DNA of 64,000 nucleotides from Azolla caroliniana (GCA_043228905.1 JBHGNT010000009.1:21328001-21392000); one strand, 5' to 3'. Positions 5,389 to 64,000 are shown, counted from the stretch's first letter. A program made the numbers and translations. The notes: generated from the letters alone by a model not told the origin.

Positions 5389-5410
5389 CTCCTGCTCTTC
5401 TGCCGCCTCT

Positions 5411-5428: not shown

Positions 5429-5431
5429 AGA

Positions 5432-31417: not shown

Positions 31418-31554
31418 ACGCGCTCACTTACTAAAGTTCACATTCGCGCTTCTCTCATTGTTTTTACTCTTAGTAAGTTATCCCACATACAAACGCAGCT
31501 AGTTCGACTCTCACTATATATACTAACTCATCTCATATACATATATATGATTAC

Positions 31555-31596
<42 letters not shown>

Positions 31597-33317: not shown

Positions 33318-33760
33318 TGTTAAGTAATTAGGTAATTAACTAGGGTTAATTAGAGACTAATTATATGGTTATGTTAAGCAGTGGAAGATTAGTATGATAT
33401 GCACATGAGAGTGTGTGAGAGGAAGAGAGAGAGAGAGAGGAAGTTACACTTATGAACACGAAGATAAATGGGGGATGATTGACTATATTGAAAAGTGTCA
33501 TCAACATACAAAAATACCCACAATGAGGTATATACACAACCCATGTGCAAAGGTGCACATGTGTGGGTAGAACATAGGTACTTATGTGTAAGTCCTACAT
33601 TAAATGTACTAAGGAGTGGAGGATCTAGAATATCCCACTTAAGTACAAGGTCCTATTTAAAGGCTTAAGGTCAACACATTAACTAGATTCGATCTAGGTA
33701 ACTACTAAGTTACATGTGTTGACTAACTAGATTAAACTAGTTGAGCTTGATATCTCAACA
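33318..33760 (-). mobile_element. Solo Copia LTR (family of the element at 61749) inside Copia-A pol
   Basis: TGTT...AACA ends; CTCCT TSD on both sides; reverse-complement similarity to 61749-62189; Copia-A frame resumes across it (TDVHK-EKWCNAMQEE). Confidence 0.9.
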
Positions 33761-34085
33761 CTCCTTATGTACATCAGTCATGACCTCTTCATAGCATTCT
33801 GGTTCCCCTTCATCAGTCAAGAATATATTGACTGGCTGGATACCGAGAGGAGGTCTTCATTTGTCTTCGTGGATATCTTCTTCCTTCAACAACTGACACA
33901 AGTTCGGTTTCTTCTACCAGCTCATCATCCGACTCTGATTCGTGTGCATCTGTTTGCTGTTGAGTGTCAGCCGAGTCAGATTAGGCTTCATCGGCCAGTT
34001 GTTGTCTGCCGACTGGTTGTGTGGGAGTGATTGACTAGTGTTGACTCCAAAACAGTAGTCGATTGGGAAGACGACTCTGGTCTTT

Positions 34086-34106
34086 TAAACCCTAAACCCT
34101 AAACCC
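34086..34106 (-). repeat. Short interstitial telomeric repeat GGG(TTTAGGG)2TTTA
   Basis: TAAACCCTAAACCCTAAACCC on the plus strand, exactly at the Copia-B / Copia-A junction. Confidence 0.85.
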
Positions 34107-37100: not shown

Positions 37101-37496
37101 ACATGGGTGTGCCCTCTGTCATACGCAAATCCATAAGTTTCTTAAGCCAATAAACTTTGCTAGTTGCCGTCTTTTGGGCATACAGTTCCTCTAGTCTAGT
37201 CCATATAGAATAGGCGGAGTCCAAACCTTCGATATTAAAAAGCAAGGCATCGGAGATTAACAACTCAATAGTCGAGCATGCAAGCTCGTTGAACTCTTGC
37301 CAATCATCTTCGTCCATATCTGTAGGCTTTACCCCTTTGACTTTAATAGGCTTTGCATGCTTCTTCTGTAGCAAGATGTTGTAGCACTGCTTTTTCCAAA
37401 CCGCGAAGTTATGTGCACCCTCAAGCTTCTTGATGTGGATAAGGTGGCTACTATCACTACTGCTAGTCATGGTTTCTTAGCCCAAACGGAGGACCA

Positions 37497-37666
37497 AACC
37501 TGCTCTGTAGAAAACGTGATCTGCTCTGTAGAAACCCTAAACTCTGCTCTGCAAAAAACCCTAATCTCTGCTCTGCAAAAAACCTTAAAACTCTGCTCTG
37601 TAGAAAACTCTAAACTCTGCTCTGTAGAAAACCCTAAACTTTTCTCTGCATAAAACCCTAAACCCT
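37497..37666. repeat. About 22-bp tandem repeat (about 7 copies) in the Copia-B 5' UTR, containing AAACCCTAA
   Basis: Repeated CTGCTCTGTAGAAAACCCTAAA variants between PBS and gag ATG. Confidence 0.85.
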
Positions 37667-37878
37667 GCTCTGATACCAGTTTGAAGGCAGCACGAGGATT
37701 AGGGTTTAGGTCAAAAACAGAGAGGGAGAGAGTCTGAGTGAGAGACAAAGAGAGAGAGAGAGATGCACTTTGTCTTGGGTACAAAGAGTGTACCTCTTTT
37801 TTGGTTTTTAGATATTATGTATATACAAGTCAAAAGTGTGCTAAGAGTGCGTTCACACTCGTGCACTAATAAAAGGCA

Positions 37879-40800: not shown

Positions 40801-43617
40801 ATCGTCAGAGCTCGGATTGGAGGTGAGGTCTGGAGTTGGAGGCAAGTACCAGGACGTGGACTCGTCAAACACAACGTCACGACTCACCCGCACTTGTTTG
40901 GTGTGTGGGTTATAACACTTATAACCCTTCTGCTCGTCCGAATAGCCGACCAAGATACACTTCTCGGCTTTCGCGTCTAGATTCCTCCGTTTCTCCTTCG
41001 GCACATGCACATACACAATGCTACCGAAAACTCTCAAGTGTCGCAGATTCGGCTTCCTTCCGAAATATAGCTCATGCGCCAACACTTTTTCTCCCATCCG
41101 ATTCTGAATGTACACCGCGGTTCATACCGCCTTTGCCCAATAGAACTTGGGCAAGCTCTTCTCCTCCAGCATTGCCCGTGCCGCTTCTACAATTAACCGG
41201 TTCTTCCTCTCGGCCACGCCGTTTTGTTCCGGCGTGTATCTACAACTGAATTCACACCGAATTCCCTTCTGTTGCAGATAGCCGTTGAATTGACCGGAAA
41301 AGTATTCTTTTCCGCCATCCGACCACCGACACTTGATCTTTTGTCCTGTTTCCATTTCCACGAACCCTTTGAGGTCCCGGAAACAGTCAAAAACTTCACT
41401 CTTCTTCTCGATGAGATAGATTCATGTGTGTCGCGTATAGTCGTCGATGAAGGAGACAAAATATCGACTCCCACCAAGACTAACGTTCTGTGCCGGCCCC
41501 CATACATCGGAATGTATTAAGTCGAGCTTGTTCCGGCTCCGATTACGCTTGTTAGGGAAGGGAAGTCGGTGTTGCTTCCCTAGCTGGCAGGCTTCACAAA
41601 TTTGTGCCTTCCGGCCACTAAATTTGGGCAATCCGAACACCACCTGTTTCGATTGCAGGTCTTGAAGCCGTTGATAGTTGACATGGCCTATCCACTTGTG
41701 CCATAAGTCAATATCCGACTCGACTTTTTGTCCTTTCATGAACATTACGATGCCACCGTCACTAGAGTCGAGGATAAACATCCACCCGTCTCTGCACCCT
41801 TGCGCAATAACTCGGCCTTCTTCCTCAATGAAGCACCCTAGATGCGTGAACCGGACTTGCATCCCCTGGTCGACGATCTGTCCGACCGACACCAAGTTCT
41901 TCGTGATTGTCGAGATGTGTAACACGTTCATGAGTTTCCCTTTCTACCCGACATGGCTCAGGGGAACTTCACCCGACTTTCGCGATCGGATGTGGGGTGT
42001 GGTCTCTGGTTGCGACTACTCCTGGTTGCATCGGTTTTTCCAGGTACGAGAACCACTCCTTGTGGCACGTCATGTGGTTTGACGCGCCAAAGTCGACGTA
42101 CCACACCTCGTCCGACTTCGGGGTGATCTTCTTCATCGAGTTTGCTTTGTGTCTCGTCACGAAGACTGACCCTTTTTTGGCTCCTTCGGCGTAGTGCGAT
42201 CGTTGCCGATTACCCTTGTCGGTCTGTCCGGAACCTGATTCAGACCCGGTTCTCTCCGAATCGGCGCGCTTTTTCCAGCACTCACTCTCCATGTGGCCTT
42301 TCTTGCCATAGTACTAGCATTCCGTGGTGGATCTTCCTTGCCGGTTCTCATCGCCTCGACTCCCCCTGTTTTCGGAGGGTCTAGAGTTGTTGTCAGCATC
42401 ACTTCGGTGCCTTCTTCCTTGGTCCCGTTGGCCGCCTCCATTGCGCACCGACACGCCTCGTCCACCACGACCACGGGGTCTATCTCCCTCCGTGTACAGC
42501 ATCTTGATGTCGTCATGCGCGCTCGTCGACGCACCCGCGTGGTTCTCCTCTATAAGGAGCATTGACTGTAGGTCGAAAAACGACGGCGTATTCTCCCGTG
42601 TACACACAGCAATTCGGAATGCTCCGAACTTCAACGCCAGTCCCCCGAGACAAATCTGCACCATCTCGCCTTCCTCGATGTTCACATCGATGGAGGCTAA
42701 AGAGTCACATATATCTTTGATCTTTGAGGTGTAATCAGCCACCGACAAGTCTCGTTGTCATAGGTTGCTCAGCTCCTGTCGGAGTTGAAGCTTCCTGGCT
42801 GTAGTGCTTGCAGCGAAAATCTTCTTAAGATTTCCCCAAGCATCCTTCATCGTTTTCGCATCCCGAATGTAGCTTAGGAGTTTTTCGCCCACACAAGACA
42901 CGAAGTCGTACAGTACTCTGCTCGCCGATTGTTCCCACACCGGGAAATCTCTATGTGTCGATTCAGGTGCTGTGTCATTTGCTTCGTCGACATAGCTCCA
43001 GTAACCGTGCCCGAGCAGGTACTGGTGCATCTTGTAGGACCAAGATGCTTAGTTGTTTCTGTCAAGCTTCTCCGTCGGAAGCGAGCCAGCCATGCCTCTA
43101 TCCATCGGTTTTACCTATTCTTCTTGGTTGGTTTTTCTTTTCAAGTTATGTCGGATGCAGAGGTTCTCAACCCTCGCGCTCTGATACCATGTAAAGAATA
43201 TGTGCGGAAGCAATAGAAAACCGAACACTAAAGATACGCAGGTTTAATGGAGAGCTTGAATATACACAGCACGTGGGAGAGACAGATAGAACACACAGAA
43301 ACTCAATTCAAAATAATGTTAAATCTGTACATAGGATGTGCTCAGTGAGCACTTTTATACAAGTCCATACGGACTGACAAAAGTACTGACACGTACTTCA
43401 ATGCTCATAAGTGAGCTCTACACTAACTCCCAAAATGTATTCCTACATGGAATATCTTCTCAACGGTCTCACGGTTTACGCAACGCTACGGCTTCTCGTT
43501 GCGTATCGGTTTACGCACCCAGTTTTCACACCAGTCCGACCTAACCGATCAGTCCCAACCGATCCGGTTCTCGGCTTGCACAGCCGATCCGGCCAATGTT
43601 GAGCTTATATCTCAACA
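37879..43617 (-). mobile_element. Complete but degenerate Ty1/Copia 'Copia-C' inserted in the Copia-B 5' LTR
   Basis: LTRs 37879-38318 and 43190-43617 (roughly 7% diverged by eye); TSD AGGCA; PBS-Met 43178-43189; PPT 38319-38330; gag-PR-INT-RT-RH with many stops. Confidence 0.95.
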
Positions 43618-46139
43618 AGGCACGATGGCCCTTTATTCCCAACACCCCCTTCAAAGGTACGGGAGACCTGTTTATAAGGTAGACAGCCATCAACATTGCC
43701 TCAGCCCAATACGACTTTGGCAATTTTGTATGTGCCAACATGCGTCTTACCCTTTCCATTATGGTCCTATTCATTCTCTCCCAAACCATTGAGCTCAGGT
43801 GTCTTTATAACCATATACTCAAATTTGTTGCCTTGAGACTTGCAATACATCTCAAATTGGCCTCTATACTCACCACCATTATCTATCCAGATAGCATTGA
43901 ACTTTTGTCCAGATTCTCTTGTTGGCTTTGCATGAAACTCTTTAAAGACCGACAACACTTGGTCTTTAGACACCAACACAAAAGCCCACACATTTCTACT
44001 CAAATCATCGAAGAATTATCCACCACGGTGTGATGGGGCATCCACATAACACACATCTGTGTGAACCAGTTCTAGGGCATGCTCTCTTCTCATCGGAGGC
44101 CTGGAGTGAAAGATTGTTCTATTCTGCTTTCCAGCCAAGCAGTCCACACACTTTTCAAGGTGTATCCCTTTCACTTCTGGTAGGAAATCCTTTTCAGCAA
44201 GGATATGCATTCCCCTTTCGCTCATGTGCCCGAGCCTTTTATGCCACAACTCACCATTTGAGTCCCCCACAACATTTGCTTCATCTCGGCACATCACAGT
44301 GTGTTCTGTTTTTGAGCTCGAGCCACAATCAAACTCCCTTTACAGAACTTCCATGTACCATTACGAAAACCACATTGTAGCCTTCGTCGTCTAGCCGTCC
44401 ATCCAATATCAGATTCAATCTGACATCCAGAACATGGTAAACATCCCTCAACATTAACCTACAGCCAGTAGATGTTAGCAAACACACGTTTCCTATGCCC
44501 ACAATCTTGCATTCACCGTCATTTCCCATCCTTACGTAGCCATAGTCACCAGCTATGTAAGATGAGAAACATTCTCTTTTAGGGGTTAAGTGGAATGATG
44601 CACCGAAATCCACTACCCATGAGCACTCAGCATTTGCAAGATTCATACTAGCTTGTTCACAGATAAATAACATCTCTTCCTAACTAGTTGCAATGGCTGA
44701 GGTGTTTTTATCATTGGAAACTTTTCTAGGTTTGACCTTGTCAGTCATACCTTTGTCCTTTCTAAGGTGTCGACCATTCTTTTGGAAGTGGTCACCTTCC
44801 CACAATAGAAGCATGTAGGTCTTCCTCTAGATTTCGACCTTGCATAAAACCTATCTCCATTTTCGAGACTTCTGTGTTTGCTTCTTCCTCTACTAAGCTC
44901 TTGGGTCACATTAGCTTCTAATTGAGACAAGGCACTTTTATCCTTTCTTCTTGTCTCTTCATTTAAAATACTTGTCTTTACTACTTGTAAAGATAGATTG
45001 TCTTCTTTACATGAGGTATTGAGTGTCACTATTAAGTTTTCCCAACTGTCAGGTAGAGTACATAGTAGTAGTGTGGCTTGCATAGCATCATCTAATGGGA
45101 ACTTCGTTGATGCTAACTGATTCACCAGTCCCATGAGCGTACTAATGTGCTCTACAATGCTCTCCCCATCTACGTACTTTTAGTCTCACTATTTTCCTCA
45201 TTAGGGAAGTTTTATTTAGAGTATTTTTCCTTTCATAAAGTGCAGAGAGTTTATGCCATAACTCGGAGGCATTGGTATCACTTGCTACATGTTGTAGGAT
45301 GCTAATGTCCACACACTGTCTTATAGTTACCACTGCCTTTCTATGTAGAGTTTTCCATTCAGATTCTATTACCCCTCTAGGTATGTCTTCCTTTTCTATA
45401 GGCTCATACAGATCTTTGACTATCAAAAGATCTTCCATTTTGATCTTCCAGTCTGAGTAGTTTTGTGAGTTTAGGACAATCATCCCTAGAAAGCTACTCA
45501 CATTCCCTTCCATCTAGAACCTAGGATCTTATACCAGTTTGAAAGATTTTACTCAGACGTAAACCATAATATACTGAGACACAAACAAAACGAAAAACAA
45601 GGAGCACACGATTTACGTGGAAAAACCTGATTTCAGGGAAAAACTACAGCAAACAGAAATTTCCACTATGAGACAAGAAGAAATACAAACATGGAATGAT
45701 AGAACCTGATTTGGTATGGATGCACTCTCAAGTTGTTATCTAAAACCATAGTTTTAGCCGAGTGCACCAAACCCTAACTCGTAGGTATCTGTCACTTTTG
45801 AAGCTTCCAAAGCTTCTCTGTTCTATCTCTCTTTCTTCTCTATTTCACTCTCGTTCCTTTGTTTCCTCTCACGCTCTGCTTCTGAGCTATGTCACTCGCA
45901 CAACCACTACTGTGTTAGCACTCTATCGTTCTCTGTATCACTCTACTCTTGCAATACGTTCACTTACACCTCACGCGCTCACTTACTTAAGTTCACTTTC
46001 GCACTTTTCTCGTTGTTTTTACTCTTAGTGAGTTATCCCACATACAGACCGAATTCGGGCAGCCGACTCTTGTTTCGGCTTTTCGACCAATTTCGGCCAG
46101 CCGACTCTCGTTTCGGCTTTTCAACCAATTTCGGTCAAC

Positions 46140-49100: not shown

Positions 49101-50544
49101 GCTTTCTCAAACTCCGACCACATTGTCTCCCCTTCTTGAAGCTCGATGACGCACCTTTGGATGTTGTTGGCGACAACTCTCTTGAAGCTTGTGATTTGAC
49201 GTGCTTCAAACACGTCCCTTTGATTCATCTCCCTTTTGTATGCATCGAGGAACTTCGTAATGTTCCTTCCATCGAATTGACCCTCGAGCTCCACGACACG
49301 GTCGACGGCCTTCTCCACACTCGCATCGTTGTCTCGAGATCTCATCATTTGTTCGACGATCAACATCATCCTTTCGAACTCTCCTGCTTGGTTGCTTGAG
49401 GACGCCATCTCCAAGTATTGGTCTCAACTTGATCCTTCCTACTGCCTCTTTCACGTCGAGTTCACCGCTTAAATATGTCGTGAAGATCCGTCACTACGTG
49501 CGGATCGCGAGGCGGAACTGCCGGGGTTCTAGACCGGAAGGATTCAAAGTTGCACTAGCTTTAGCGAGAAAGAAATTAAGACAGATTGGAAGAGAGAGAG
49601 ATTGAGATAAGATAGAACGCTTGATTTTAGATTAAGAGAGAGCTTAAGATTGGACCCTTGACTTTAGTTTTAAGAAACAAGATACACCATCAATTGGACA
49701 ACGAATTTTTCTTCTTCTTAAATTCGTGAATTACATTCTATTCTTTTACCTTTTCAATTGTTACATTCATTTCCTACCATCTGTCTCTTGGGTCCCACAT
49801 TGGTTCTCAACGCAACTGCCCAAGTCTCTAGTTTTAAGAAACAAGATACACCATCAATTGGAGAACGAATTTTTCTTCTTCTTAAATTCTTGAATTACAT
49901 TCTATTTTTTTACCTTTTCAATTTTTACATTCATTTCCTACCATCTGTCTCTTGGGTCCCACATTGGTTTTCAACGCAACTGCCCAAGTCTCTAGATACC
50001 ACCGTCCATCTCTTGGGTCTCACGTTGGCTTTCTACAACTGCCCAAGTCTCCGCACATAGACACTCCCCTACCATCTGTCTCTTGGGTCCCACGTTGGTT
50101 CTCAACGCAACTGCTCAAGTCTCTAGATGGAGTGTCCTACATGGGTATCACCATCGTCCATCTCTTGGGTCTCATGTTGGCTTTCTACAACTGCCCAAGT
50201 CTTCGAAACATGTGTGCTCCTCACATAGACACAAAGGTAATAGCTTTTGCTCTGCCTTATATATGGTGGGATCTTTATTTGTCCCGTCGATGTGGGATAT
50301 CACATATTTTTCTCTTCTTCTTTGTAAACTTCATACCCACATAACTTGACACTTAGATGTCTATTTCCTACGTAGTAAAGTACATTCAGAAGCTCTTCAA
50401 GACCTCCATCTCTTTGTACCACGATATTAAACTTATTTAAAATAGTATCCTTACTATTATTGTTTTATATTTCGTGAGAAGAACCACACTCGATTTCGTA
50501 TGTTCCTTACAAGTTTCACACTATCGCCGAAAATCTTCAAGACA
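46140..50544 (-). mobile_element. Ty3/Gypsy 'Gypsy-2', relative of Gypsy-1; truncated within RT
   Basis: LTR 49476-50544 (TGTCTTGAAGA...TCTTCACGACA); PBS CGGTGAACTCGACGTGAA; knuckle CAWCDSMDHMRRDC; PR ALIDHGSEIN; pol KYKMVDKKIKPV...LPQGAMNSV. Confidence 0.9.
49665..50203. repeat. Tandem and hairpin repeats within the Gypsy-2 LTR
   Basis: About 165-bp duplication plus five copies of a CTTGGGTC..CA..TTGG...CAACTGC.CAAG unit. Confidence 0.8.
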
Positions 50545-51811
50545 CCGTGTGCCCTAGATGGTTAGTTGGGTTGTAGATAGGATTAAAGAAAGGGCGATTA
50601 GGGTTATAAAGTAAGACTCGTGGGCCATAATGGTTTTGATGAGGATTTCTACTTACTTGATTATTTGTTATGTTGCAGATGTATTGCGGGAGGAGGTTCC
50701 GGTGGTTCAATGATCGAGGATTTCTTTTTGCTGGAAAATTAGGGTTAGCAATAGGGTTAGATTTTTGAAAGGGATTAGGTTGTAGGTTCTTTGTAGAGGA
50801 TTTTAGTTTGGGGTTGGGGTTAGTGTTAGAGTTAACATTAACGTTAGCTTTAGGGTTAGGTTTTTGAATGGGATCATTTGTAGAGAATTTCTTTGGTTTT
50901 TCACTCCTAATGTAATTTGGAATTGTTAAGGAACTGTTATTAACATTATAATCTTCATTATCACTCATCTCTATGTCGATTTCTCTAACATTGTTTGTAT
51001 CGTTAATGTTGTGCATGCTACTCTCTGCTTTGTCTCTACTGATAGTGGCCTTCTTTCTAATAGTCGTAGTAATAGAATAAGTAACTACTACTTCATCACA
51101 AGCTCTAAGGATTTATGTGGCAAACTCTTGCTGCCAATGTGCCATTCTATCTTGGAATGAATCGGGACCTACTAGTGATGTTACTTCTTGTATGAATGGG
51201 GGTTCTTGCATTGTTTCCATTATTTTTACTATGTTGGTACAAACTTGATTAGGAAAATCATCTATGGCTTTGGTTAATGCGTGGACTAATAAGTCTAAAT
51301 GCCGAATATATCATGTTGTAAGATCCTTGCGATATTGTGTTGTGAGGGCTAGAAATTTTGTTCGCAAGCTCGAATTGATCTCCTCATGACCTACTATTAA
51401 TTTCGGTGGGTGAACCCTAAGATTATGAGGGGTGATGTCATGTGAGTTTAGATCAGAGATACGCTTATATGTATTCTTAGCTTCTTGTGTGCGCCTATAT
51501 AGATGTTTAAATTCAGATACCACTTTACGCTTATAGTCTTCAAAGTGGTGTGAGGACATATATGAGTCGGAGGAATTTACCTTTTCATTACTAGGATTAG
51601 AGTTTATGAAAGTTGGGGATAATGTAGGGGCACGTTGTCGTTTATTAGGACATTTGTTGGCGCTTCTCAGTTTTGTTGGTGTTGGTGTAGTTGATGCCAT
51701 CGCTGCAAAAGTCATCATCTGTTGTGGAGGAAACTCGGCACTAAATGGTGATTCGATGCGAGTCGAAGTATCACTATTGTGGGTTCCAAACTCCAATGAT
51801 AATCCCTCCAT
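50545..51811 (-). pseudogene. Unassigned ORF of over 400 codons downstream of the PLE hammerhead (putative PLE ORF1 or RT N-terminal extension)
   Basis: ORFs 51311-51820 and 50537-51016 share a frame, broken only by TGA 51311-51313 and TAA 51113-51115; cut by the Gypsy-2 LTR. Confidence 0.55.
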
Positions 51812-52057
51812 AGGAACCAAGATAACAATTATTGTTGTGACCGTAGCGTCGTGACAAGGAGTGCGAGCGAACTAGCACAACTATTGAGATGATATGGGAA
51901 GAGTAAGAAAAGAAATAAAGCAATGATGCAAGTGAAACTAAGATGAGTAGGATTAGAGGTGAACAAGAGTAAAAGAGAATGAGAGAATGAGATGAAAGAA
52001 GAAGAGAATAGTGAGTGAGAAAAAAAAAAAAAAAGCTTAAGAAATTTTCATTAGAAA

Positions 52058-52109
52058 GACCTTGTGCAAACTAGTAGAGCTCTAGGTAGAGCTCATCAGT
52101 GCCAAGGTC
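52058..52109 (-). ncRNA. Degenerate minimal type I hammerhead ribozyme
   Basis: GACCTTG-GCA CTGATGA GCTCT-ACCT-AGAGC [TCT in place of GAA] ACTAGT T TGC-A-CAAGGTC. Confidence 0.7.
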
Positions 52110-52129
52110 ATTTACAACAAGAGGGTAGG

Positions 52130-52137
52130 TTTATATA
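52130..52137 (-). promoter_or_regulatory. TATA box of the PLE pseudo-LTR
   Basis: CCTATATAAACC on the minus strand, about 20 nt upstream of the hammerhead, preceded by a (CT)n tract. Confidence 0.5.
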
Positions 52138-52341
52138 GGGGGAAGAGAGAGAGAGAGAGAGAGAATAGGAGTTTAATGAGGGGAGTGAGGGAAACGAGGA
52201 ATTGTGATAGGCAAAGGATTGATAAGTGAAAGTGGGCTAGAGGGGGGTTATATGTATGTATATGATAAGTGATAGGTGGGGGTGGGGGTGGGCTCTAAGA
52301 AAAGGGGGATTATAGGGGTGGGATATAAAAGGAATATAGTA

Positions 52342-52899
52342 TTAAGTGGGAGTATTTATGGATTTATATTTAGTTTTGACAAGAATGGAATGAATGGACT
52401 TAGACTTAGTCCAACATATGAAGGGTCGCGGTAGTTCGGATAGTTGGGGATGTGTGGCTAAATCTGCGTGGAGGTTTTCTAGCATGTCATAAATTCCTAA
52501 TCTAGGGGTATCTTTCATATACCTAAGTTTGAAGATAACATGTATAAGGGTACTTATAGGTTTTCTACTAAATACTACTGATTTCCTAGCGCTAAATAGG
52601 ACCTTTTTATAATTCTCTAATATAAAAGAAAGGGGATATCCTCTCTTAACTAATCTACTAAAAAATAGTTTTTTCATTCAAAGGAAACCTAAGGGGGTAC
52701 TTTCTCTAATTAGGTATCATTTTAGTTCATTAATAATAAAATGATGTTTTAAGTGAAGGGGGTTAACTGACGAGAATGAGAGATACTGGTAGGCATTTTG
52801 GGGCTTTTGGTAGCAATTAAAGGAGAAATGTGAATTCCTTATGTTAATCCATAAATCTAAGAATGGTAATCACAAGGGAGAAGTGGTGATGGTAATTTT
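52342..52899 (-). pseudogene. PLE reverse transcriptase C-terminus (last RT motifs and thumb), no C-terminal GIY-YIG
   Basis: One frame with three stops: LPFLDLWI...CYQKPQNAYQYLSFSSVNPLHLKHHFIINELK*Y...FFSRLVKRGYP...PRPFICWTKSKSIHSILVKTK. Confidence 0.85.
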
Positions 52900-53214
52900 G
52901 AGGCTATGATTAAAGATTATGACATCACTCCTACACTCGAGCATCACACATGCCTAGTAGATCTTTTTGGCCGATCAGGTCAGTTAGAAAAAGCTATAAT
53001 AGCAATGGAGGAAACACTATTTTATCCGAACAGTGTGATGTGGCATGCTATGTTGGGTGTTTGTCGGAAGTGGGGCAATGTAAAGCTCGGAAGATATGCA
53101 TTTGACCAAATACTGAAGTTTGATGAAAGTGAGATTGGGGCATATATATCCATGCATAACATTTATGCCGATGTTGGCATGTTGGATGAGAATATGAGTG
53201 AGATAGATGGATAA
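52897..53214 (+). pseudogene. 3' end of a PLS-class PPR gene (last repeats plus E domain), 5' part replaced by the PLE
   Basis: FEAMIKDYDITPTLEHHTCLVDLFGRSGQLEKA...PNSVMWHAMLGVCRKWGNVKLGRYAF...AYISMHNIYA. Confidence 0.85.
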
Positions 53215-54856
53215 ACAGATGTTTAATTTAATTTTCGCGGGATATCTATGGGATAAGCAGAGCCCATCTCGAATATTATTGGAGTAACACATACTAATGC
53301 AATATTTGACGCCCTTGTAAGGGCATCATAAACTTTTTATTCCCCTTCACTTACATCTCTCCACAAGGATGTGGAAGTTGGAAGCCAATCAAGAGACAAT
53401 GCATTGACGCAAAAAGAACTCTCCGATGAAACAAAAACACATCCATGTTGTGGAAAAAAAATTGTCGACAGGGAGAGCACCTTATGGGGAACTCTTTAAA
53501 TTCAAACCCACCCTTAGGACTTAAGACAACATAAATCAAGTGTTGCTCGATAGTGAAGGGCCGGTTGAACAAAACAAAATATGCAGAGGTTGGTTGACAA
53601 TGCATGTAGGTATACAAAGGGATTTAAACCTTATCCAAGGAGTATGCCAGCCAGATCGACTCAACAAGCACCTCCTCTGACATAACACTTAAACACGGTA
53701 ACATAGAACAAAGTGTAGAACTCTAGGACCGATCTAAATTTCCTAAAACTACCCAATCATACCGTGTTAGATGTGAAAGGGACATGTTTGATGCACCGCC
53801 TTGCAAGGGTTCTTACTACTTAATGAATTGCAACAATAAGCACATGCCGTAGGAAATTTGGATTGTATACTTAGAGGGACAAGGTCTAAAACTATGTTAC
53901 TAAGGGTCTGAAAATAAGGGTCGTAATTGAAAAACAAACTTTAGTGAGAGACAAGTTCCTAAAGAAGTTTGACTCTATTGAACATGAGTTAACAACAATA
54001 AAGGGAGCATCACACATCTCTTACTAACAAAAGTTTACAGCCAAACATAATTAGGCCAGGCAGCACCCTTCAACGCCTATAGAAGATGGAGAAATAAACC
54101 TCCTACATTCAACATTTCAAATGGCCATTTGAGGAAAAAGTATTGGGTGGATTCTAGGGTGAGATCAAATACCCACCCTAGATTCTCTCCCCCAAGAGCA
54201 ACTCTACTCAAATCAAAGCCTTTTTGTATCTCTAAACTCTATACAATATCAATATCCCTGATGGAGAATAAAATCAGTTATTTATTGTCGATGAGGAGGC
54301 CAATTTTGACCTATGGTACCAAATAAACATATCATCTTGAATGTGACTCCTTGCTAAGAAGAGGGGTTAACCTTGTTGTGAAAATAATGCATGCGCATAT
54401 GAGTGCACCCGTTTTTGGTGGAGATTTGAGTATGACAATTAAGTTTCAATGCATGTCTAAGTACAAGTCATCATAATTCTCTCAAATTTCCTTATATGTT
54501 GACCATGCAAGGGTTAAGCAATATTCATCCTCCACAAACTCTTCATTGCATATCTTCATACTAAGGTAATGATAGTATGATTGTGTGAGAGTGTGAGAGT
54601 GTTTGAAGAAGTGTTATCTCCAAGAGCCAAGGGTCATGGGGGGTATGAAGATGTGGGATATGTTTTGGCATCTTCACCTTGTATTGGGGGTTAACATTTG
54701 AAATGTAATTGATCAATTTTGACATCGTAGCATCTAGCCACTTCGTCGTTAGTGTCTATTAATCAATCTTCAATGATCACATACTTCATAACATCACTTG
54801 AGAGCTCCAATATATCTTCTACTCCCCATCTTTCAAACCATTTCATAATGTCCACC

Positions 54857-54890
<34 letters not shown>

Positions 54891-57800
54891 CTTGGAGGGA
54901 GTGTGTATGTGGAGGTTGAGGTTGAGGTTGAGGTGAGGTAGCACGGTGAGAAGTGGGGGCATTTCGGTTAGAAAGTGATGTGTCTATGGGTGAGGGGGTG
55001 ATCGATGACAAAAGACGAGGGGCACATGATGAACCAAGAAGGTGGCAAGGGATGGAGGAATGGGGGTAAAAAGGAAAAGTATTAGGGAAAAAGTAAAAGG
55101 AAAAATAAGGAAAGAAGGGAGATAAGAGAGAGAAACAAAAACAAAAAGGAATAAGTTAAAAAATATGTACAAGAACCAATGAATTGTATGGTTTGCAACC
55201 CTATGGTCCGAAAACAGCAAGATAAGGAGAGGGAAGGGAGAAACCACAACTTAAGTGTCTCATGGACATTGGTTTTACTACTTACTCTAAAGAAATTATG
55301 TACATGGCGAGTGATTGTTCCTCTAAACAACCACAATCTCTAACGTATTGTGAGATTTGACTATGACTGACATTTTCGAGGGAAGCTCCATATAGGTATC
55401 TTGTTTGGGATAGAATGTTGAGGTTAAACATGGGTGTTTGGATGCAATTGCCAAGCTCAATGGTACAAGTCAAAGGTTTTTTCATTGTAGACCCAGGAAG
55501 TGGCATGATTGACAAACCAATGTGGGCATTGGTAGAGACTAAAAGGTGAGGGGTGGTCCAACACAAAGAGCATTATGTGGCAACTCAAGATGAACGCGAG
55601 GGCCAAAATTGAGCGTTACCTTCGTACAAACTTTGCAGTTTCATGGTTTGATGGGAGATTGACATCAACTAAGTGTCGAATACGAGTGTATAATGGCCGT
55701 ATTCACACTGTCCCTTTGGACAGCCCAAGTTTGGGCTATTTCTATAAATAGCATAAAGGGCAATTGCCCTAAGACAGTCACTATATAAAGTGACTTTGTA
55801 ACCTTTAGAAAAGGTTGGTTGTTAATTTTGTAACTGTTGCTATTGGAATATAACATTTCTTTGTGCCTATCTCTCTCCCTCTCTCTCCGTGTCTATCTTG
55901 CTCATGCTCATACACAGGTTCTGCTTCATCACGAATGTTGCTTGCACTTCCGCATTGACGGCCTTGTTCCCAACATTTGGTATCAGCATGTTGGAGGTTC
56001 TTCAACCCGTTGTCGGTCATCATAGTACACCACACAACATTCTGTTTTCGTTTTCTTTGAAGAACATAGAAGGGAGAAGAAAAACAAAAAAGCTCGCATA
56101 TCACTCTGTTAAATCACAAATCGGAGTAAGCCAACCAGTTGTACTCTGTTCCTGTGATTGTAACCGGTTGAGGGGAGCTCCTTGTGCAACAACCGACCCA
56201 ATCATGCTTCATTCGGTTAAACGGCATCCGAATAGGTCACCCGACGCTATTCACCCACTTGTTGTAACCACCTAGTGCATATTGGTCTCCTGGCAACAAC
56301 CACTTCGTGCTTCACTCGGCTGATCGACATTCAAGAGGATCAGTTGGATCCGTCCATCTCATCGCTGCAGTCATCTGAAGTAGAATCGGCCTAAACAATC
56401 GGTTTCTTGTAATCAGTATTCGGCATACAATCGGAAGCTAACCGGGTTCACTCCAACTCGGCAACATTCGGGAAGACCAGCCGGTTTTGTCCCTCAAGTT
56501 ACCGTAGTTACTCCGAGCAAGTTCAGCAACAAGTATCCGAAACCAAACCGAATTGGGTTCAAAACCGACTAGAACGATATCAGGTGAGCCGACCGGCTGC
56601 ACCTCACCAAAGTTCGTAGTCAACTCCGAACCGAGTCTTACCAACCGAAACCGAATCAAATGGCATCAACATCCGGCACATCGGAGATGAGTCTAAGGGG
56701 GTTCAACGGTTCGAACTTCAACTTCTGGAAGGAACAAATGCAGGACTATCTCATAGTCAAGGGTCAGATAGACCCGATTGAGAATGAAAATCCTCCAGAA
56801 GCATACAAGGCAAACGAGTGGCTAAAGCTGGACAGAATCGTCCGCGCCACGATTCGGATGCACTTGTCAGAGTCAGTATACTTCATAGTGCAATCATGCA
56901 CGACAGCTTTCGAACTTTGGAAAACACTGTCGGAAACTTATGAAAAGAAGCGACGAAGATGTATCTGATCCGGCGCCTCTACAATCTGCGGATGAAAGAA
57001 TCTGATTCGGTTCAGGCACACCTCAATGAGTACGAAAGCATAAGCTCCCAAATCTCGTCTCAGGGGACGACAATCAAGGATGAACTCATAGCAATGATAC
57101 TCATGAGTAGCCTCCCCTCTTCATGGGAAACTTTCGTTACAACCGTGTGCAATGCTTCAACGATTTCTATCAAGTACTCCAAAATCACGAGCGCAATCCT
57201 GATTGAAGCAGCTCGGAGAAAGTATCTCGCCAATGACTCGGCAGATGAAGCTTACGTAGTACAAGGTTCGACCGACCGATCGAACAACCAGGGAAGAAGT
57301 TCTTCCCGACCACCGAACAATCAGCGAAGACAGAGCAAGTCCCGGGACAACCGAATATGCAACTACTACAAGAAACCGGGACACATCAAAGCCGAATGTC
57401 GGGCACTCAAAGCAAAAACCGACAAAGCGCAGAGAGTGGATCAGAAGAGTAGCCGGCATGAGGAGGTCAACTACGTCGGCTCTTCAGCCGAAATTCTGAC
57501 GACCGACCCAAACATATTATCCATAGAGAACCCAGTCGAATCAGAAGTTTTGCTTACAACTGAGGAATCGAGCACATGGCTCCTGGACTCGGGTGCATCG
57601 TATCATGTGACACCTCATCGATCTCAATTTCGGCAATATTCGGACCGGCACTCTAACTCAGTTCGAGTCGGAAACTCGCAGCATTGTGCAATAATCGGAA
57701 TCGGCACCGTAGAGCTCAACCTTCCGGGTGGCTCTACACTCGTACTACACAACGTCTGACACGTTCCTAAGCTCTCAAGACCCTTGATCTCAATCGGACA

Positions 57801-58395
57801 ACTTGACGAAGCCGGCATCCGTGCCGGGTTCTCATCGGGAGGGTGGACACTCCACAAAGGGAACCTCCTGCTTGCTCGAGGACCAAAGGTACATTCCTTG
57901 TACCCTTTATATGTCACACTCAAAAAGGGTGATTTGTTTTTGGTTGATATTCCTGTGTCATCATTATGGCACGGACGACTTGGACACCTCAGCAAGTCCG
58001 GCATAACGCACCTATCCAGAGCCGGCTACATCCCCAAGCTCTCCTTCTCGGATCACCAATTCTGCGAGCATTGCCAGTACGGCAAATAGGTAGCCGCATC
58101 ACACCCGACATCACCACCAAGAGAATCGAGCCCACTCGATTTGGTCCACTCAGACGTCTGTGGCCCGATGCCACATCAGTCTCTCGGCGGTGCTTTGTGC
58201 TTCGTCAGTTTTATTGACGACTTGACTCAGAAGGTGTGGGCTTACCCCATTAGAACCAAAGATCGAGTGTTCTCGATCTTCTCTGAATGGCTTGCAATGG
58301 TCGAAAATCAGACCAATCGGAAACTGAAATGTCTTCGAACCGACAATGGAGGAGAATTCAAGTCTGAAGAATTCGTCAAATTCTGTCGGGAACGC

Positions 58396-58730
58396 TGTCG
58401 TGAAGATTTTCGGCAATGGTGTGAAAATCACATAAAACGTACAAAATCGAGTATGAATCACATAAAACAATAATAGTGAAAATAACATTTTAAATAAGTT
58501 TAATATCTAAGTACAAAATGATGGAGGCCTTCAATAGCTTTCGAATGCACTTTATTACACGAGAAACGGACAACTAGATATCAAGATATGAGGGTATAAA
58601 GTTTGTGAAAGAAAAAGAGAAAACTGTGAGATATCCCACATATGCACGACAAATACGGCTCTCATCATATATAAGGTAGAGCAAAAGCTATTATCTTTGT
58701 GTCTATGTGTGGACCATAGAGAGTTCAAGG
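58396..58730 (+). mobile_element. 5' part of an LTR of the Trp-PBS Gypsy lineage inside Copia-E
   Basis: Begins TGTCGTGAAGATTTTCGG; similar to the reverse complement of 50225-50544. Confidence 0.8.
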
Positions 58731-59005
58731 TAACTTGAACTAAGAGTGGAGGTGGCCTAGCACTCTAAAGGTTTTGGCCAACCAAAACCGATCCGGCGAT
58801 GAAGCCGGTGCTCCGGTGGCACACCGGCAACCGGTGATCCGATGGAGCCGGCGAGCCGGTAGAACCGACATCCGGCGGTGCACCGGTGAGGCGGGGGCAT
58901 CCTACGGCGCACCGACATCTGGCGCCAGCGAGGCACCGGTAACCGACAGCATCCGGCGAACCGGCGACTAGATAAATAAATATATAAATATATATACATA
59001 TACAA

Positions 59006-59076
59006 GGAGGGCAAGTAAAGATTGGAACTTTGCACCTCCAAGTTAAAAGTCAATTGGCTTACCACTAAGCCAAGAT
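59006..59076 (-). other. Degenerate tRNA-Lys(UUU)-like sequence (SINE head or tRNA relic)
   Basis: A-box-like TGGCTTAGTGG, anticodon loop GACTTTTAA, B-box-like GTTCCAATC; no convincing acceptor stem. Confidence 0.45.
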
Positions 59077-60699
59077 ATTTAGTTGAAATTATATTTCTAT
59101 CATTGTACTTTTACATATAAATTCTCATACATGAGAGCTAAAATGAGTGACATGGTTATCATGCACCACATGTAATACATAAGCGCCAAATGGCAAACAT
59201 GCATTATGGCTTGGTCGGTTGGCGCACACATTTTGACAAGTCGACTCCGACTCGGCTCCAGTTGTCTACAACGACAATCAGGGTGTTGTTGCTTTGTCAA
59301 AAAATCCGGTTCACCACAACGCCTCCAAGCATATCGATGTTCGATATCACTTTGTTCGGGACTGCATCATTTCAGGGAAAATCGGTCTCGAGAAGATATC
59401 CACAACCGATAATGTCGAAGATGGAATGACCAAGTGTCTTTTTGCGGATCGCTTGGACCAGTCCCTTCGGCACCAGATGGGCATAACGAAAAATCAGTCC
59501 GGTTAAAGTCGGACACACATCACAGGATGGTTTCAGACCACCGACATCGGTTCTTTGAGAATCGACTTTAGCTCTTCCGATCCGACCGGTTCGGTCTTGT
59601 GTCTACGGATCTTGCCGACTCTAACAAAACCGATCTATCCAATAAACCTTGTATATACCTGTAATTTTCTTTTAGATAACCCATGTATACGCCCATTACG
59701 GGGGAGTGTCGAATAGGAGTGTATAATGGCTGTATTCACACTGTCCCTTTGGACAGCTCAAGTTTGGGCTATTTCTGTAAATAGCATAAAGGGCAGTTGC
59801 CCTAAGACAATCGCTATATAAAGTGACTTTGTAACCTTTAGAAAAGGTTGGTTGTTAATTTTGTAATTGTTGCTATTGGAATATAACATTTCTTTGTGCC
59901 TATCTCTCTCCCTCTGTCTCCGTGTCTATCTTGCTCATGCGCATACACAGGTTCTGCTTCATCACGAATGTTGCTTGCACTTCCGCATTGACGGCCTTGT
60001 CCCCAACACTAAGGATGGCACAACGAATACATCACTCATCAATGATGAACGAGGTACTAGCTGAACAAAACAATGTGTATGGAGGTTGGTTTATCTCTAG
60101 GGTAACATAACTAAACTAGAACCAAGACACGTGTGAGCCAGCTAGCATGCCAAACACATTGGCAGAAACTACAACATGAACATGCTGATGTAATACTAGA
60201 AATTAGAATAATAGGACAAGAAATGGATTGCCAATATGATTGATTGCTCAAAGGAATACAACCAAACTAGTACAACACAAAATCAAAGTAGCATTACAAG
60301 AATGAACTTTGGAATGATACAACTATTAATAAAGCTAAATCTATATATTATGATCTTATAAACACTCAAATGTGCTAGATCACCTTTGGAAAAGGCTCCC
60401 ATGCAAAGGTAAGTATGCTAGACCAAGTATTACACAACACCTATAAGTGAAAACAAAAACATCCAATAAGAGACAAGCCAACAATCTATTAAAGTGAGCC
60501 AAAATTCTTGAGACTCATATAAGACACCCACACCTCACAAAAACCTTGGGTGGCCATACAAGCTATACATGCATTAATCTCGCTAATGGAAAAGGAGAGA
60601 TAATCCATCCAACCCTCTTAAAAACCAATTAATGACTATTGTGAGTGTGCACAAATTAGCAATTTGGTCTTGAAGTTTACATAGTTTGGTGATGCTTAT

Positions 60700-61748
60700 A
60701 ACCACATGGAGCACTTCAAACGAAATCCTCAAGCTTATGAGCTTATTACAAATGTAATGTGTTTATGACCTTCAAGATCACACTTGATGACTAACCTGAC
60801 ATGTGGTTCTAGGTTCGTCAAGGTGATATGCTAAACAAATTCAATTATGTGGAGAAGTTTTATCATTGTGTGCTACGTGAAACCTATTGAACAACTACTT
60901 ATCACTCAAATAATGCAAGGGAGATAATGTAGGCTTACATCATGCATGCCAAAAGCATGCATAATTGATGCAAACCATAAGATAAAATGTAAAATGACAA
61001 ACTCGTGAGTTGGTTTGTCAAAGGGTTATGTGATCTTACCTTACCTAACTTGTTGTTTGTCAAATCATGTAGGTCCTTTTTTGAAGCTTACACCATGGTA
61101 ATGGTCATGAAAGAGTCCATGATTAGACTCCAAATGCCAACTGCCACAAACACAAACCCAAGAGGGTGGTCCATGTACAACCCAAAAGAAGGTAGAATCT
61201 CCTACAAGCTACAAGATTGGAGAAAACATTAGTTTCCCTACATGTTATGGACACCCAACAAGTCATAAGTGCCGACTTGTAAACCAACATAAATCACAAT
61301 ATTGTAAATTGTGCAAGGCCTTTGTAATGCGCCACCTAGATATTTCTAGAATGCAACCAATGGAAGGTAAGATTTGAACAAGGACCCTTGGTGGTATATC
61401 CTATGTCTCCAACTCAGTCACATAGATCGCCTCCACTAGCCATTTCACGACGAAAACTCCCAAATCCTACATCAACATAGTATGAAAATCCAAATTTTGA
61501 CCATGGGTCAAGACTCATGAAGGACAAGGGGGTAGCCCACCCTATTAACCAAACAAATCACAAAGTGATTATGACCGAGATTGAAATAACAATGTTGATA
61601 TGGCATGTGCAAAAGGGGAAAACTAAGAAAAAAGGCAAAATGCACAAAGGCTTAAGATGTTGGTTTAAATTCTCACTAGAAGAAAAATTGAGGAGAACAA
61701 GATTAAAACAAGAAACCATATTCCAAATGGAAAGAGGTAACTAATAAT
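60700..61748 (+). mobile_element. Very old LTR-retrotransposon gag-like remnant
   Basis: WFVKGL motif and decayed Cys/His knuckle-like stretches; weak. Confidence 0.25.
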
Positions 61749-62037
61749 TGTTGAGAGATCAAGCTCAACTTAGTTTAGTTAGTTAGTCAACCATGTAACT
61801 TCGTAGTTACCTAGATAGAATCTAGTTAGAAGTGTTGACTATAACACCTTAAATAGGACCTTCTACTTAAGTGGGATATTGTAGATCCTCCACTCCCAAG
61901 TACATTTAATATACGACTCACACATGTGCACCTTTGCACATGAGATGTATATATACCTCATTGTGGGTATTTTTGTATTTTGATGATGATAATGCTAATT
62001 TAATATACTTACTCATCCCCCATCTTGTGTTCTTCAT

Positions 62038-62072
<35 letters not shown>

Positions 62073-64000
62073 TCTCTCTCTCTCTCTCTCTTCCTCTCAC
62101 ACACATATCACTTAATCTTCCGCTTATCAACTAATCACATAATTAGGTACTAATTAATCCTTGCTTAATTACTTACCTAATTCTTAACATGGTATCAGAG
62201 CGTGTGGTTTAGCACATCCACTAAGCCCACCCAATTCTTCGTAATTGTGTGTTTGAAACGCCGACGACAAATTCCGGCCATTCGCTATTGTCGTGCCGCT
62301 ACGTAGCACGTACACGTGATTGAAGGAAGAAAAACAAAAGAAGAGAAGACACAATCAACATGAACACACAAATGGGTAGCTCGCTCCCTAGCGAAAAGCT
62401 AGACCTGAGCAATTATTCATCTTGGGAATACAAGATGACCCAATACCTCGTCGGCCAAGAGTATTGGAGCTACATCAACGGTGCACAAGAAAATCGACCT
62501 GACTCGAAAAATGCTGACTTTGCAACATGGGAGCAAGCTGCGAGTCAAGTAATGTATTGCATGGCAACATGTGTCCACGACCACATGCTTAGCCACATTC
62601 AAGACGCCAAGACACCCAAAGAGGCGTGGGAGAACTTAAAGAAAATGTTTGCCGCCAACACAACCGCCTGAAAGCTTCAACTCCGATAAGAGTTGAACAA
62701 CATTCGGCAAAAAGACATGTCTGTGTTGGACTACACCGCCAAGATCAAGAGCATTTGCGACTCTCTTGGCTCCATCAAAATAAACGTCGACAAAGACGAG
62801 ATTGTTCAAGTATGCTTGGGCGGCCTCTCACAACGATTCGACTCGTTGAGGACGGAAATCTTGGCGAGGGAAAACCCTCCCTCGTTCTTCGACCTTCAAT
62901 CAATGCTAATGGTTGAAGAGAACCATGTCCAAACCAAAACTAAGACATCGGAAGGACAAATGTTCTTCTCGAATTCAGATGGTGACCGAGGACGAGGTTA
63001 CGGCGGTAAAAGAGATAAATTCGACCCATCACACGAAGGGAAATCAAACCTTCACGGAAGCCATCGAGGAACCTTCGGAAGAAGGGGGAGCTTCCACGCC
63101 GAACATGGTCGGCAAAAGAGGCCCGCAACTTGAAATTACTGTGGCAAAGTTGGCCACTACGAGGCGGAGTGTCGAAAAAAGAGAAGTGAGTCGGCTTCAA
63201 CAAGTCGACAACTTACAAACTACGCATCGAACTCCGACTACGATGACCGTGGCAGAATGTTCGTAATGAGGCATAGAGTGAACTCTATGTCGGCCTCTAA
63301 CTCCGTAAGCGCCTCCAACTCGGAAGACGTGTGGTTCGTCGATTCCGGCGCCTCACATCACATGACATCTCACGAAGAGTGGTTTCGTGATTTCCGAATG
63401 CCGGATCGACCCGGCTTCATAAAGACGGGAGATGACACCACGCACCCCATTCGGCACATTGGCAATGTCACATTCGAGAAAGAAGGCGAGCAAACTTGCA
63501 TCAAGAATGTCTTGCACGTGCCCACAATAACGAAGAATTTGGTCTCGGTCGGCCAAATCGTGGAGTAAGGCATGCAAGTCCGCTTCAACAATGAAGGTTG
63601 TTTCATTAAGAAAGATGGTTGACTCATAGCTAAGGGGCGGAGAGACGACCGAATGTTCATCCTCGATTCGAACAAGGTGAAATCGGCAATGTACGTTAAA
63701 GGTCTCAAAACCGAGGCAAGCATCGAGTTGTGACACAAGAGAATCGGCCACATAAACCTCCAACGGCTTCAAGCGATGCAAACCAAGGGAGTCGTCATCG
63801 GACTTCCGACATTCGAGTCAAAACGAGTCGACCGAGTATGTGAAGTGTGTCAACTCGGCAAACAACATCAACTCCCATTCCCAAAGGAGGGCCACGTGAG
63901 CAAAGGCCTCCCCGACATCATACACTCGGATGTATGGGGACCGGCTCAAACACCGACAATTGGCGGATGCCGATACTACGTAACCTTCATCGACGACTAC
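61749..64000 (+). mobile_element. Ty1/Copia 'Copia-F' (5' part; continues beyond the window)
   Basis: 5' LTR 61749-62189 (TGTT...AACA); PBS TGGTATCAGAGC 62190-62201; gag from 62360, PR WFVDSGASHHM, start of integrase; several stops. Confidence 0.93.

What the first reader, a model, noticed from the sequence alone, without database searches (positions are those of the whole stretch)
50545..52899. Penelope-like retroelement junction: RT tail without endonuclease, promoter, ribozyme, then a new ORF
Seen, in order on the minus strand: 5'-truncated RT end (PFLD, YQKP.N.YQY..FSS..P, FI..EL..Y, RL..RGYP, P.ICW.K..SI..ILV) with a stop right after the thumb, then C-rich UTR, TATA, hammerhead-like motif, a pyrimidine-rich intron-like tract and a long ORF. 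The ORF track shows only the last 111 aa of the RT. Known: PLEs form partial tandems in which the upstream 3' end supplies the promoter and hammerhead. Penelope/Poseidon types have a C-terminal GIY-YIG; Chlamys-type elements have it N-terminal and Athena/Coprina lack it. PLEs are patchily distributed in land plants. Inference: a permuted or endonuclease-less PLE family, possibly undescribed in this lineage.
Basis: partly seen in the sequence, partly recalled or inferred. Interest (0 to 1): 0.8.

Follow-up and report, generated by a model that had tools for sequence, protein, structure and literature searches.

The report
Nuclease-free retroelement duplicating kilobases on insertion
This is a decayed copy of a plant jumping gene that encodes a telomerase-like copying enzyme but no DNA-cutting enzyme, yet is scattered through chromosome interiors, where its copies are often flanked by duplications of hundreds to thousands of bases (about 4,800 here, including the end of a host gene), which suggests it likely inserts by patching existing DNA breaks.

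Summary
Real, and richer than reported. The stretch is the 5' part of one insertion of an endonuclease-less, Coprina-like Penelope element: truncated RT tail, TATA, hammerhead (core mutated here) and ORF1 of the next 4.66-kb unit, cut by a Gypsy element; the rest lies 76-108 kb away. Intact relatives have a helical ORF1 and a TERT-like RT in the -1 frame, and no GIY-YIG at either end; none was found in the genome's six families. Against the telomere rule for this class, 70 of 82 RT loci lie over 1 Mb from chromosome ends. Of 35 scorable insertions, 16 are flanked by junction-to-junction duplications of 26 bp to 4.8 kb (5 over 1 kb); 15 show none. 3' ends fall just behind a conserved hairpin signal, some 5' junctions carry telomere repeats, and two insertions were primed from both ends by different RNAs. 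Best reading: priming on pre-existing breaks, finished by replication-type repair. A 5S-derived repeat shares the 3' signal. The scan noted this family before on other DNA of this genome (EN-less, 3' signal, two-ended fusion); the listings did not mention long duplications. Intron and permuted domains are not supported.

The parts
52895..63046 (+). Duplicated target block (about 4.8 kb of matching sequence; here swollen by a later Copia at 55672-60008 and a 1.0-kb unmatched piece at 60311-61320). Its twin is at G000:C9:21263800-21269931, directly beyond the element's 3' end.
   Evidence: three collinear blocks, 96.2% over 2790, 98.0% over 303, 93.5% over 1740 columns
52895..53214 (+). 3' end of a PPR gene, a duplicate; the intact 715-codon frame stays at the twin (C9:21261972-21264116)
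52895..52912 (-). 5' junction: 18 bases identical to the target twin and matching the element at 14 of 18 positions (microhomology, read by eye)
52342..52894 (-). 5'-truncated RT tail (palm end and thumb), three in-frame stops, ORF stop at 52344-52342, no endonuclease after it
52138..52341 (-). C-rich 3' UTR / promoter region with CT microsatellite
52130..52137 (-). TATA box, about 20 bases before the hammerhead, same place in families A-E
52058..52109 (-). Type I hammerhead with minimal palindromic helix III; GAAA core mutated in this copy, so predicted inactive
51870..52057 (-). Pyrimidine-rich spacer; in families B and C the same stretch holds reverse-complement telomere-like repeats; intron not shown
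51839..51865 (-). 3'-end signal: invariant 9-base motif (51865-51857) followed by a covarying 4-bp hairpin (51850-51839)
51823..51832 (-). Zone where 22 of 23 mapped family-A 3' ends fall (unit 518-527), the inferred priming window
50545..51811 (-). ORF1 of the next unit, first 422 codons, two premature stops; conserved helical domain then Asn/Pro-rich low-complexity region
49476..50544 (-). LTR of a Gypsy element inserted into ORF1; the element resumes at G000:C9:21302207 after the other LTR, with a 4-base duplication (one mismatch)

Best explanation
The stretch is one end of a decayed insertion of an endonuclease-less Penelope-like retrotransposon, whose reverse transcriptase likely primes on free 3' DNA ends at pre-existing breaks and whose insertion is likely completed by replication-type repair that copies the target twice. 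Shown: two-ORF unit without GIY-YIG, fixed 3' ends behind a conserved hairpin signal, variable 5' truncation, head-to-tail arrays, genome-wide dispersal, flanking duplications of 26 bp to 4.8 kb. Inferred: (1) RT is made by a -1 frameshift at A AAA AAC ahead of a hairpin; (2) RT binds the 3' signal and pairs a 10-20-base window behind it with a broken DNA end through 3-8 bases of imperfect homology, as telomerase does with its template; (3) cDNA runs back through the hammerhead site into the previous unit, from a read-through or circular RNA; (4) the cDNA end rejoins the target at a point upstream, either a second free end or by microhomology invasion at a broken fork, and the distance between the two points becomes the duplication.
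For: No nuclease: Pfam finds only RT in ORF2 and nothing in ORF1; the AF2 model of ORF2 (pLDDT 87) ends at the thumb and matches TERT best; ORF1's conserved 190 residues model as four long helices with no PDB match at E<=0.001; genome search with PF01541 gave 1 match, an intron-split gene away from any PLE ORF, and a PLE-type GIY-YIG query gave 0; a sixth family at 42% identity also stops after the thumb. Interstitial: 70 of 82 RT loci on C1-C22 are over 1 Mb from an end; family A 28 of 29 over 0.5 Mb. Duplications that start at the 3' junction and end at the 5' junction in 16 of 35 scorable insertions: about 4800, 3813, 3131, 3045, 1433, 973, 812, 386, 343, 286, 120, 119, 105, 42, 30, 28 bp; several have diverged 1-6%, so they are not assembly doubles, and here their divergence equals that of the element's own two repeats (95.8-96.7%). 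Free ends: telomere repeats fill the 5' junction at C4:8.70 Mb and C7 tip and cap both cDNAs at C3:1.69 Mb; two insertions have canonical 3' ends of different RNAs on both sides of one duplication (C3:1.69 Mb; C8:11.41 Mb). Junction and target share 3-8 bases at 13 of 13 readable 3' junctions (by eye, no test). Precedent for the repair step: 1-10 kb duplications at L1 insertions, at low frequency, ascribed to break-induced replication (10.1101/2024.12.14.628481, passages). EN+ PLEs give 8-10 bp duplications (PMC3846280, passages).
Against: 15 of 35 scorable insertions show no duplication within the flanks fetched and 4 only a partial one; 11 further insertions could not be scored (8 in satellite, 3 split by LTR elements). 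The search would miss duplications under about 20 bp; one possible 10-bp case was seen by eye (C3:19.77 Mb). Copies were picked from top-scoring hits, not at random. There is a modest excess near chromosome ends (11 of 82 within 0.5 Mb against 3.8 expected, p=0.001), and young copies often sit in a 178-bp satellite near telomeres. Nothing here shows what made the break: a nick by a LINE or host nuclease met by a fork would leave the same marks. The genome searches score only the best candidates (113 of 489 RT candidates), and the GIY-YIG query had no positive control genome. No empty site was seen. The frameshift hairpin lies in coding sequence and its covariation is moderate (3 pairs, 68 of 500 shuffles as high; cells 3 of 500); family F lacks the same slippery site.
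Confidence: 0.7

Rival explanations
1. A nuclease acting in trans (the abundant APE-bearing LINE, a host enzyme or an unseen GIY-YIG element) nicks the target for ordinary target-primed reverse transcription; long duplications arise later when a fork meets the intermediate.
For: An APE-RT LINE with 1515 candidate copies is present. L1 can give 1-10 kb duplications from its own cuts. The searches for a GIY-YIG partner are not exhaustive.
Against: That LINE ends in GA microsatellite in the 29 copies read, a target the PLE junctions do not share, and none of its 12 copies with a mapped 5' end had a duplication of 60 bp or more within 1.5 kb (weak control). No duplication under 26 bp was resolved among PLE copies. 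Telomere fillers and two-RNA insertions point to open, untethered ends.
Confidence: 0.17
2. It is an ordinary telomere-attaching Coprina element; interior copies are secondary, moved or doubled by rearrangement after insertion.
For: Telomere-like repeats follow the hammerhead in families B and C; excess near ends; published behaviour of the class (PMC8557442, PMC6431247, passages); earlier scan note e1-10619883.
Against: No examined copy has its 3' end joined to a telomeric array: 3' junctions lie in LTR elements, satellite and unique DNA. The C7 tip copy points toward the telomere and is cut inside ORF1. Duplications match both junctions to the base and there are no PLE pieces at their outer edges, which unequal recombination would need.
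Confidence: 0.06
3. The long flanking duplications are assembly artefacts or older tandem duplications that the element merely landed between.
For: Three of the longest are 99.4-99.97% identical; raw reads were not available.
Against: Others diverge by 1-6% and carry different later insertions in each copy; an element landing at the exact seam of an older duplication 16 times, with microhomology at the seam, is improbable.
Confidence: 0.05

Closest known systems
Coprina-type EN-minus PLEs, including Selaginella moellendorffii Sm1/Sm2 (PMC8557442, PMC4209133, PMC13159263; passages and sections read)
   Same: TERT-like RT with DKN, no GIY-YIG, type I hammerhead in the terminal repeat, partial tandems, telomere-like repeats beside the hammerhead (families B, C); RT falls in an EN-less clade with a Selaginella protein and a Puccinia element.
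   Different: Mostly interstitial, 3' ends not on telomeric arrays, long flanking duplications, separate 3' hairpin signal just before ORF1, two ORFs joined by a likely -1 frameshift.
Athena / Terminon elements of bdelloid rotifers (PMC6431247, PMC8557442, passages)
   Same: No endonuclease, coiled-coil-type ORF1 that can be separated by a frameshift, hammerhead near the 3' end, 5' truncation capped by telomere repeats.
   Different: Athena attaches to G-rich telomere overhangs; membership by RT tree not tested, no Athena sequence was in hand.
EN-minus PLE-X families of Chara and Selaginella (PMC8557442, passages)
   Same: Green-lineage PLEs that spread through the genome with no identified endonuclease; the paper leaves the mechanism open.
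   Different: PLE-X belongs to Chlamys, has CxC motifs and targets (CA)n or 28S rDNA; none of these was seen here.
L1 insertions with 1-10 kb tandem duplications (10.1101/2024.12.14.628481, passages)
   Same: cDNA at the seam of a kilobase duplication, ascribed to break-induced replication.
   Different: There a rare by-product of an endonuclease-bearing LINE in cancer cells; here 13 of 16 resolved duplications exceed 100 bp in a germline record, with no element nuclease.
EN-plus Penelope/Neptune elements (PMC3846280, passages)
   Same: Pseudo-LTR reaching to the ORF start, partial tandems, priming from both target ends, microhomology at 5' junctions.
   Different: C-terminal GIY-YIG and 8-10 bp duplications; absent here.

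Membership tests
Penelope-like elements | RT closest to telomerase RT | tested here: met
   AF2 model of family B ORF2, best Foldseek hits are TERTs (E 2.7e-12); window RT tail is 95% identical to family A, whose RT is about 72% identical to B
Penelope-like elements | Pseudo-LTRs / partial head-to-tail tandems | tested here: met
   arrays of 1.5-4.1 units on C20, C29, C22, C32, C400
Coprina-type EN-minus PLE | No GIY-YIG endonuclease | tested here: met
Coprina-type EN-minus PLE | RT groups with Coprina | tested here: inconclusive
   own families sit in a 51-row DKN clade without EN (100/99) that holds Selaginella, Closterium, gymnosperm and Puccinia proteins; no labelled Coprina or Sm1/Sm2 sequence was available
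Coprina-type EN-minus PLE | Type I hammerhead in the terminal repeat | tested here: met
   cleavage not tested; window copy mutated
Coprina-type EN-minus PLE | Reverse-complement telomeric repeats next to the hammerhead | tested here: inconclusive
   present in families B and C, absent or decayed in A
Coprina-type EN-minus PLE | Restricted to chromosome termini, 3' end on telomeric repeats | tested here: not met
Athena-like two-ORF EN-minus PLE | ORF1 separated by a frameshift with pseudoknot | tested here: inconclusive
   slippery heptamer, 6-base spacer and long hairpin in families A-E; pseudoknot not shown; family F differs
Chlamys / Naiad | N-terminal GIY-YIG and CxC linker | tested here: not met
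   neither in the full units of families A, B, C
Chlamys / Naiad | Insertion-in-fingers domain | not tested
   no reference sequence in hand
Penelope/Poseidon, Neptune, Nematis, Hydra | C-terminal GIY-YIG | tested here: not met
   ORF stops after the thumb in six families; EN-bearing rows fall outside the clade

The most novel reading that the evidence does not exclude
Land plants carry an ancient, vertically inherited lineage of telomerase-like retrotransposons that have left the telomere and live as break-patchers: the RT reads a hairpin-bounded internal template window, heals DNA ends anywhere in the genome, routinely leaves kilobase tandem duplications that copy host gene ends without destroying the gene, and mobilises a 5S-derived Pol III repeat through the same signal, a SINE-like partner of a Penelope element.
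Probability: 0.45. Interest if true: 0.85.

Novelty: new variant of a known kind. Interest (0 to 1): 0.68.

Why it matters
How Penelope-like elements without an endonuclease get a primer away from telomeres is stated as open in PMC8557442. This genome holds six families, some with intact, near-identical copies, whose junctions record the answer and give a compact RNA signal, a candidate template window and a non-autonomous test substrate for the missing in vitro system. It also points to an unrecognised source of kilobase tandem duplications in plant genomes that standard target-site searches (under 30 bp) cannot see, and to a living analogue of the step between retrotransposon and telomerase.

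Tried and rejected
Rfam scan of the region: no hit. Expression: no RNA holder listed; laying contigs of five runs gave patchy cover, no splice or back-splice joint in the leader, and cannot show strand, level or ends. ORF1 homology: word search 0 hits, Atlas no usable hit, profile search 41 hits, two clusters named from Cryptomeria, fold search no match. PDB sequence search gave only weak RT hits. Longer fused relatives exist (28; Closterium, Ginkgo, Puccinia on top), GIY-YIG only in two distant ones. LINE control for duplications was weak because that LINE targets GA repeats and flanks were 1.5 kb. My first estimate of 6.1 kb for the window duplication was cut to about 4.8 kb after finding different later inserts in the two copies. 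A statistical test of junction microhomology was not done; the figures are read by eye. Gladyshev and Arkhipova 2007 and Lin et al. 2016 are not held and may describe interior copies or target duplications of plant EN-minus PLEs; the supplement of PMC8557442 held no Sm1/Sm2 sequence; bioRxiv supplements were closed. Cassandra was considered for the 5S repeat and rejected because its ends vary and follow the PLE signal instead of fixed LTR termini. The host species was not identified.

Full report
Observation. The RT tail runs from about 52894 to a stop at 52344-52342 and has three in-frame stops. TATA, a hammerhead and a pyrimidine-rich tract follow, then an ATG at 51811 opens a frame with two premature stops that ends at 50545, where a Gypsy LTR begins. 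The window is G000:C9:21328001-21392000 of a 523-Mb genome. The host is a land plant: TTTAGGG telomere at the C7 tip and a streptophyte PPR gene beside the element. That it is a fern is my inference and the wording of an earlier scan note; it was not tested.

The element. DNA searches gave 40 scored matches each for the RT tail and for the ORF. Arrays on C20 and C29 define a 4661-bp unit, family A; the C29 array has a 745-codon ORF1 frame and 660-codon RT frames open. A protein search scored 113 of 489 candidates at 58-100% identity, which resolve into families A-E, and an ORF1 search revealed a sixth, F, at 42% RT identity. Family B is very young: 4.1 units on C22, 99.9-100% identical, ORF1 about 845 codons and RT frame 668. 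In A-E, ORF1 ends 7 bases after A AAA AAC, the RT is in the -1 frame, often with stops just upstream, and a long hairpin follows; a programmed frameshift is inferred. The RT model (pLDDT 87) has no domain after the thumb and is closest to TERT. ORF1's conserved part models as long helices (pLDDT 84) with no PDB match. No GIY-YIG was found in any unit, and genome searches found none tied to a PLE.

Relatives. Named neighbours are Cryptomeria (38-42%), Ginkgo, Selaginella (37%) and Closterium (32-37%). In a 65-row tree (3 picked rows dropped for lack of anchor motifs) the six families group together with five unnamed rows (95/93), with gymnosperm and Selaginella proteins (100/99), then Closterium (99/96), inside an EN-less DKN clade that includes a Puccinia element (100/99); EN-bearing rows lie outside (quick 118-row tree agrees). 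The root is only a midpoint and no curated Coprina was included. The order fits inheritance along the streptophyte tree.

RNA signals. The hammerhead is a type I motif with a two-pair palindromic helix III, conserved across families with compensatory changes. The window copy has lost the GAAA core; the 3' copy of the same insertion keeps it. About 240 bases downstream in family A an invariant 9-base motif and a covarying 4-bp hairpin (3 of 4 pairs changed on both sides) precede the 3' ends: 22 of 23 mapped family-A ends fall within ten bases, and B-E end 33-55 bases after the same motif. 5' ends are scattered. No poly(A) was seen at the junctions printed.

This insertion, reassembled on the map. 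After the Gypsy element the PLE resumes at C9:21302207, is cut again in its CT repeat by a LINE and further nested elements, and ends at C9:21270563, followed by three 212-bp repeats made of its last 125 bases plus 87 bases of target. Beyond that end lies a twin of window 52895-63046: 4.8 kb of collinear sequence at 93.5-98%, each copy with its own later inserts. The twin starts inside an intact 715-codon PPR gene, so the insertion duplicated the gene's last 109 codons and left the gene whole. The element's own two repeats differ by the same amount (95.8-96.7%), so insertion and duplication are of one age. A 1.3-kb insert in the twin has an ordinary duplication of about 11 bases.

Flanks of other copies. 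I examined 46 insertions with a canonical 3' end; 8 lie in a 178-bp satellite and 3 have 5' parts split off by LTR elements, leaving 35. Sixteen have a duplication that starts at the 3' junction and ends at the 5' junction (26 bp to 4.8 kb; 13 over 100 bp, 5 over 1 kb), 4 are partial and 15 show none in the flanks fetched. Copies were chosen from top hits, and duplications under about 20 bp would be missed. At 13 of 13 readable 3' junctions (one of 14 rows was out of register) the junction shares 3-8 bases with the target that also match the element exactly or with one or two mismatches; this was read by eye. Telomere repeats fill 5' junctions at C4:8.70 Mb and the C7 tip; at C3:1.69 Mb a B and a D element meet head to head with telomere repeats on both cDNA ends inside one 42-bp duplication. 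At C8:11.41 Mb a family-A copy and a 5S-derived repeat meet the same way inside a 286-bp duplication.

Location. Of 82 RT loci on C1-C22, 70 are over 1 Mb from an end and the spread does not differ from uniform (KS p=0.33), with a modest terminal excess (11 within 0.5 Mb, 3.8 expected). No 3' end examined is joined to a telomeric array, and the C7 tip copy faces the telomere and is cut inside ORF1.

Mechanism. The simplest account is that the RT takes any free 3' DNA end, pairs it loosely with a short window behind the hairpin and copies backwards through the hammerhead into the previous unit. The telomere fillers and two-RNA insertions show that both ends were open in at least three cases. 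The duplication is the distance between the primed end and the point where the cDNA rejoins; for kilobase cases a broken replication fork is the likely setting, as proposed for rare L1 events. Arrays of up to four near-identical units inside one duplication fit a circular template made by the hammerhead, the model proposed in PMC4209133 (sections read), but read-through RNA or later unequal exchange fit too. What makes the break is not shown.

A passenger. The 5S-derived repeat (Rfam 5S 36.7 bits, E 7e-6, just under the gathering score) has a unit of about 410 bp, 40 scored of 463 candidates, fixed 3' ends behind the same motif and hairpin, variable 5' ends, and 20-150-bp duplications in 3 of 30 loci within 1.5-kb flanks; 3' ends of PLE families are joined to it in several loci. 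It is likely mobilised by the PLE RT.

Against what is known. EN-minus PLEs are described as generally terminal, with EN-minus PLE-X as an unexplained genome-wide exception (PMC8557442; introduction, discussion, passages and supplement search). Ten literature searches (listings) showed no report of long target duplications for PLEs, of this lineage in ferns, or of a PLE-dependent 5S repeat; two founding papers could not be read. Verdict: a known kind of element, a new variant in behaviour. Interest 0.68.

Noticed in passing
L147:6760-6980 (G000:C8:11408755-11408980) and L209-L238: 5S-rRNA-derived non-coding repeat, unit about 410 bp, hundreds of candidate copies, ending at the PLE 3' signal; likely a SINE-like passenger of these elements.
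   Followed up: partly
G000:C3:1690984-1699107 (L072, L073): Head-to-head fusion of a family B and a family D copy with telomere repeats on both cDNA ends, a 217-bp extra RT piece between them, and one 42-bp duplication.
   Followed up: yes
L055:1-7880 (C7 tip): Chromosome end broken inside ORF1 of a young family B copy and capped directly by the telomere array.
   Followed up: partly
L091, L088, L076, L090: 178-bp satellite, in places next to telomere arrays; 8 examined young PLE copies sit in it.
   Followed up: partly
G000:C9:21269927-21270563: Three extra 212-bp repeats (125 bases of element end plus 87 bases of target) at the 3' junction of the window's insertion, 98-99% alike: an abortive priming event amplified later, or repeated priming.
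   Followed up: partly
L037:600-6135 and L240-L268: Abundant APE-RT LINE (1515 candidates) that ends in GA microsatellite; one copy inserted into the CT repeat of the PLE promoter.
   Followed up: partly
L035:4209-4456: Contigs of two runs reach depths of 1000-6000 over this short piece of family A ORF1, far above the rest of the unit; perhaps a separate high-copy or highly expressed derivative.
   Followed up: no
window 50700-50900 and L053:4200-4560: ORF1's Asn-Pro run is encoded by decayed repeats resembling the reverse complement of telomeric sequence.
   Followed up: no
L182-L191: Divergent family F: hammerhead about 160 bases after the RT stop, long extra N-terminus on ORF1, different ORF1/RT overlap without the A AAA AAC site.
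   Followed up: partly
window 30289-45976, 37877-43617, 55672-60008: Nested LTR elements (LTR pairs 93%, 91% and 96% alike) that spread one PLE insertion over more than 100 kb.
   Followed up: partly
L044 and L050: The same family A insertion with the same flanks occurs twice on C14, about 208 kb apart: a later segmental duplication.
   Followed up: no
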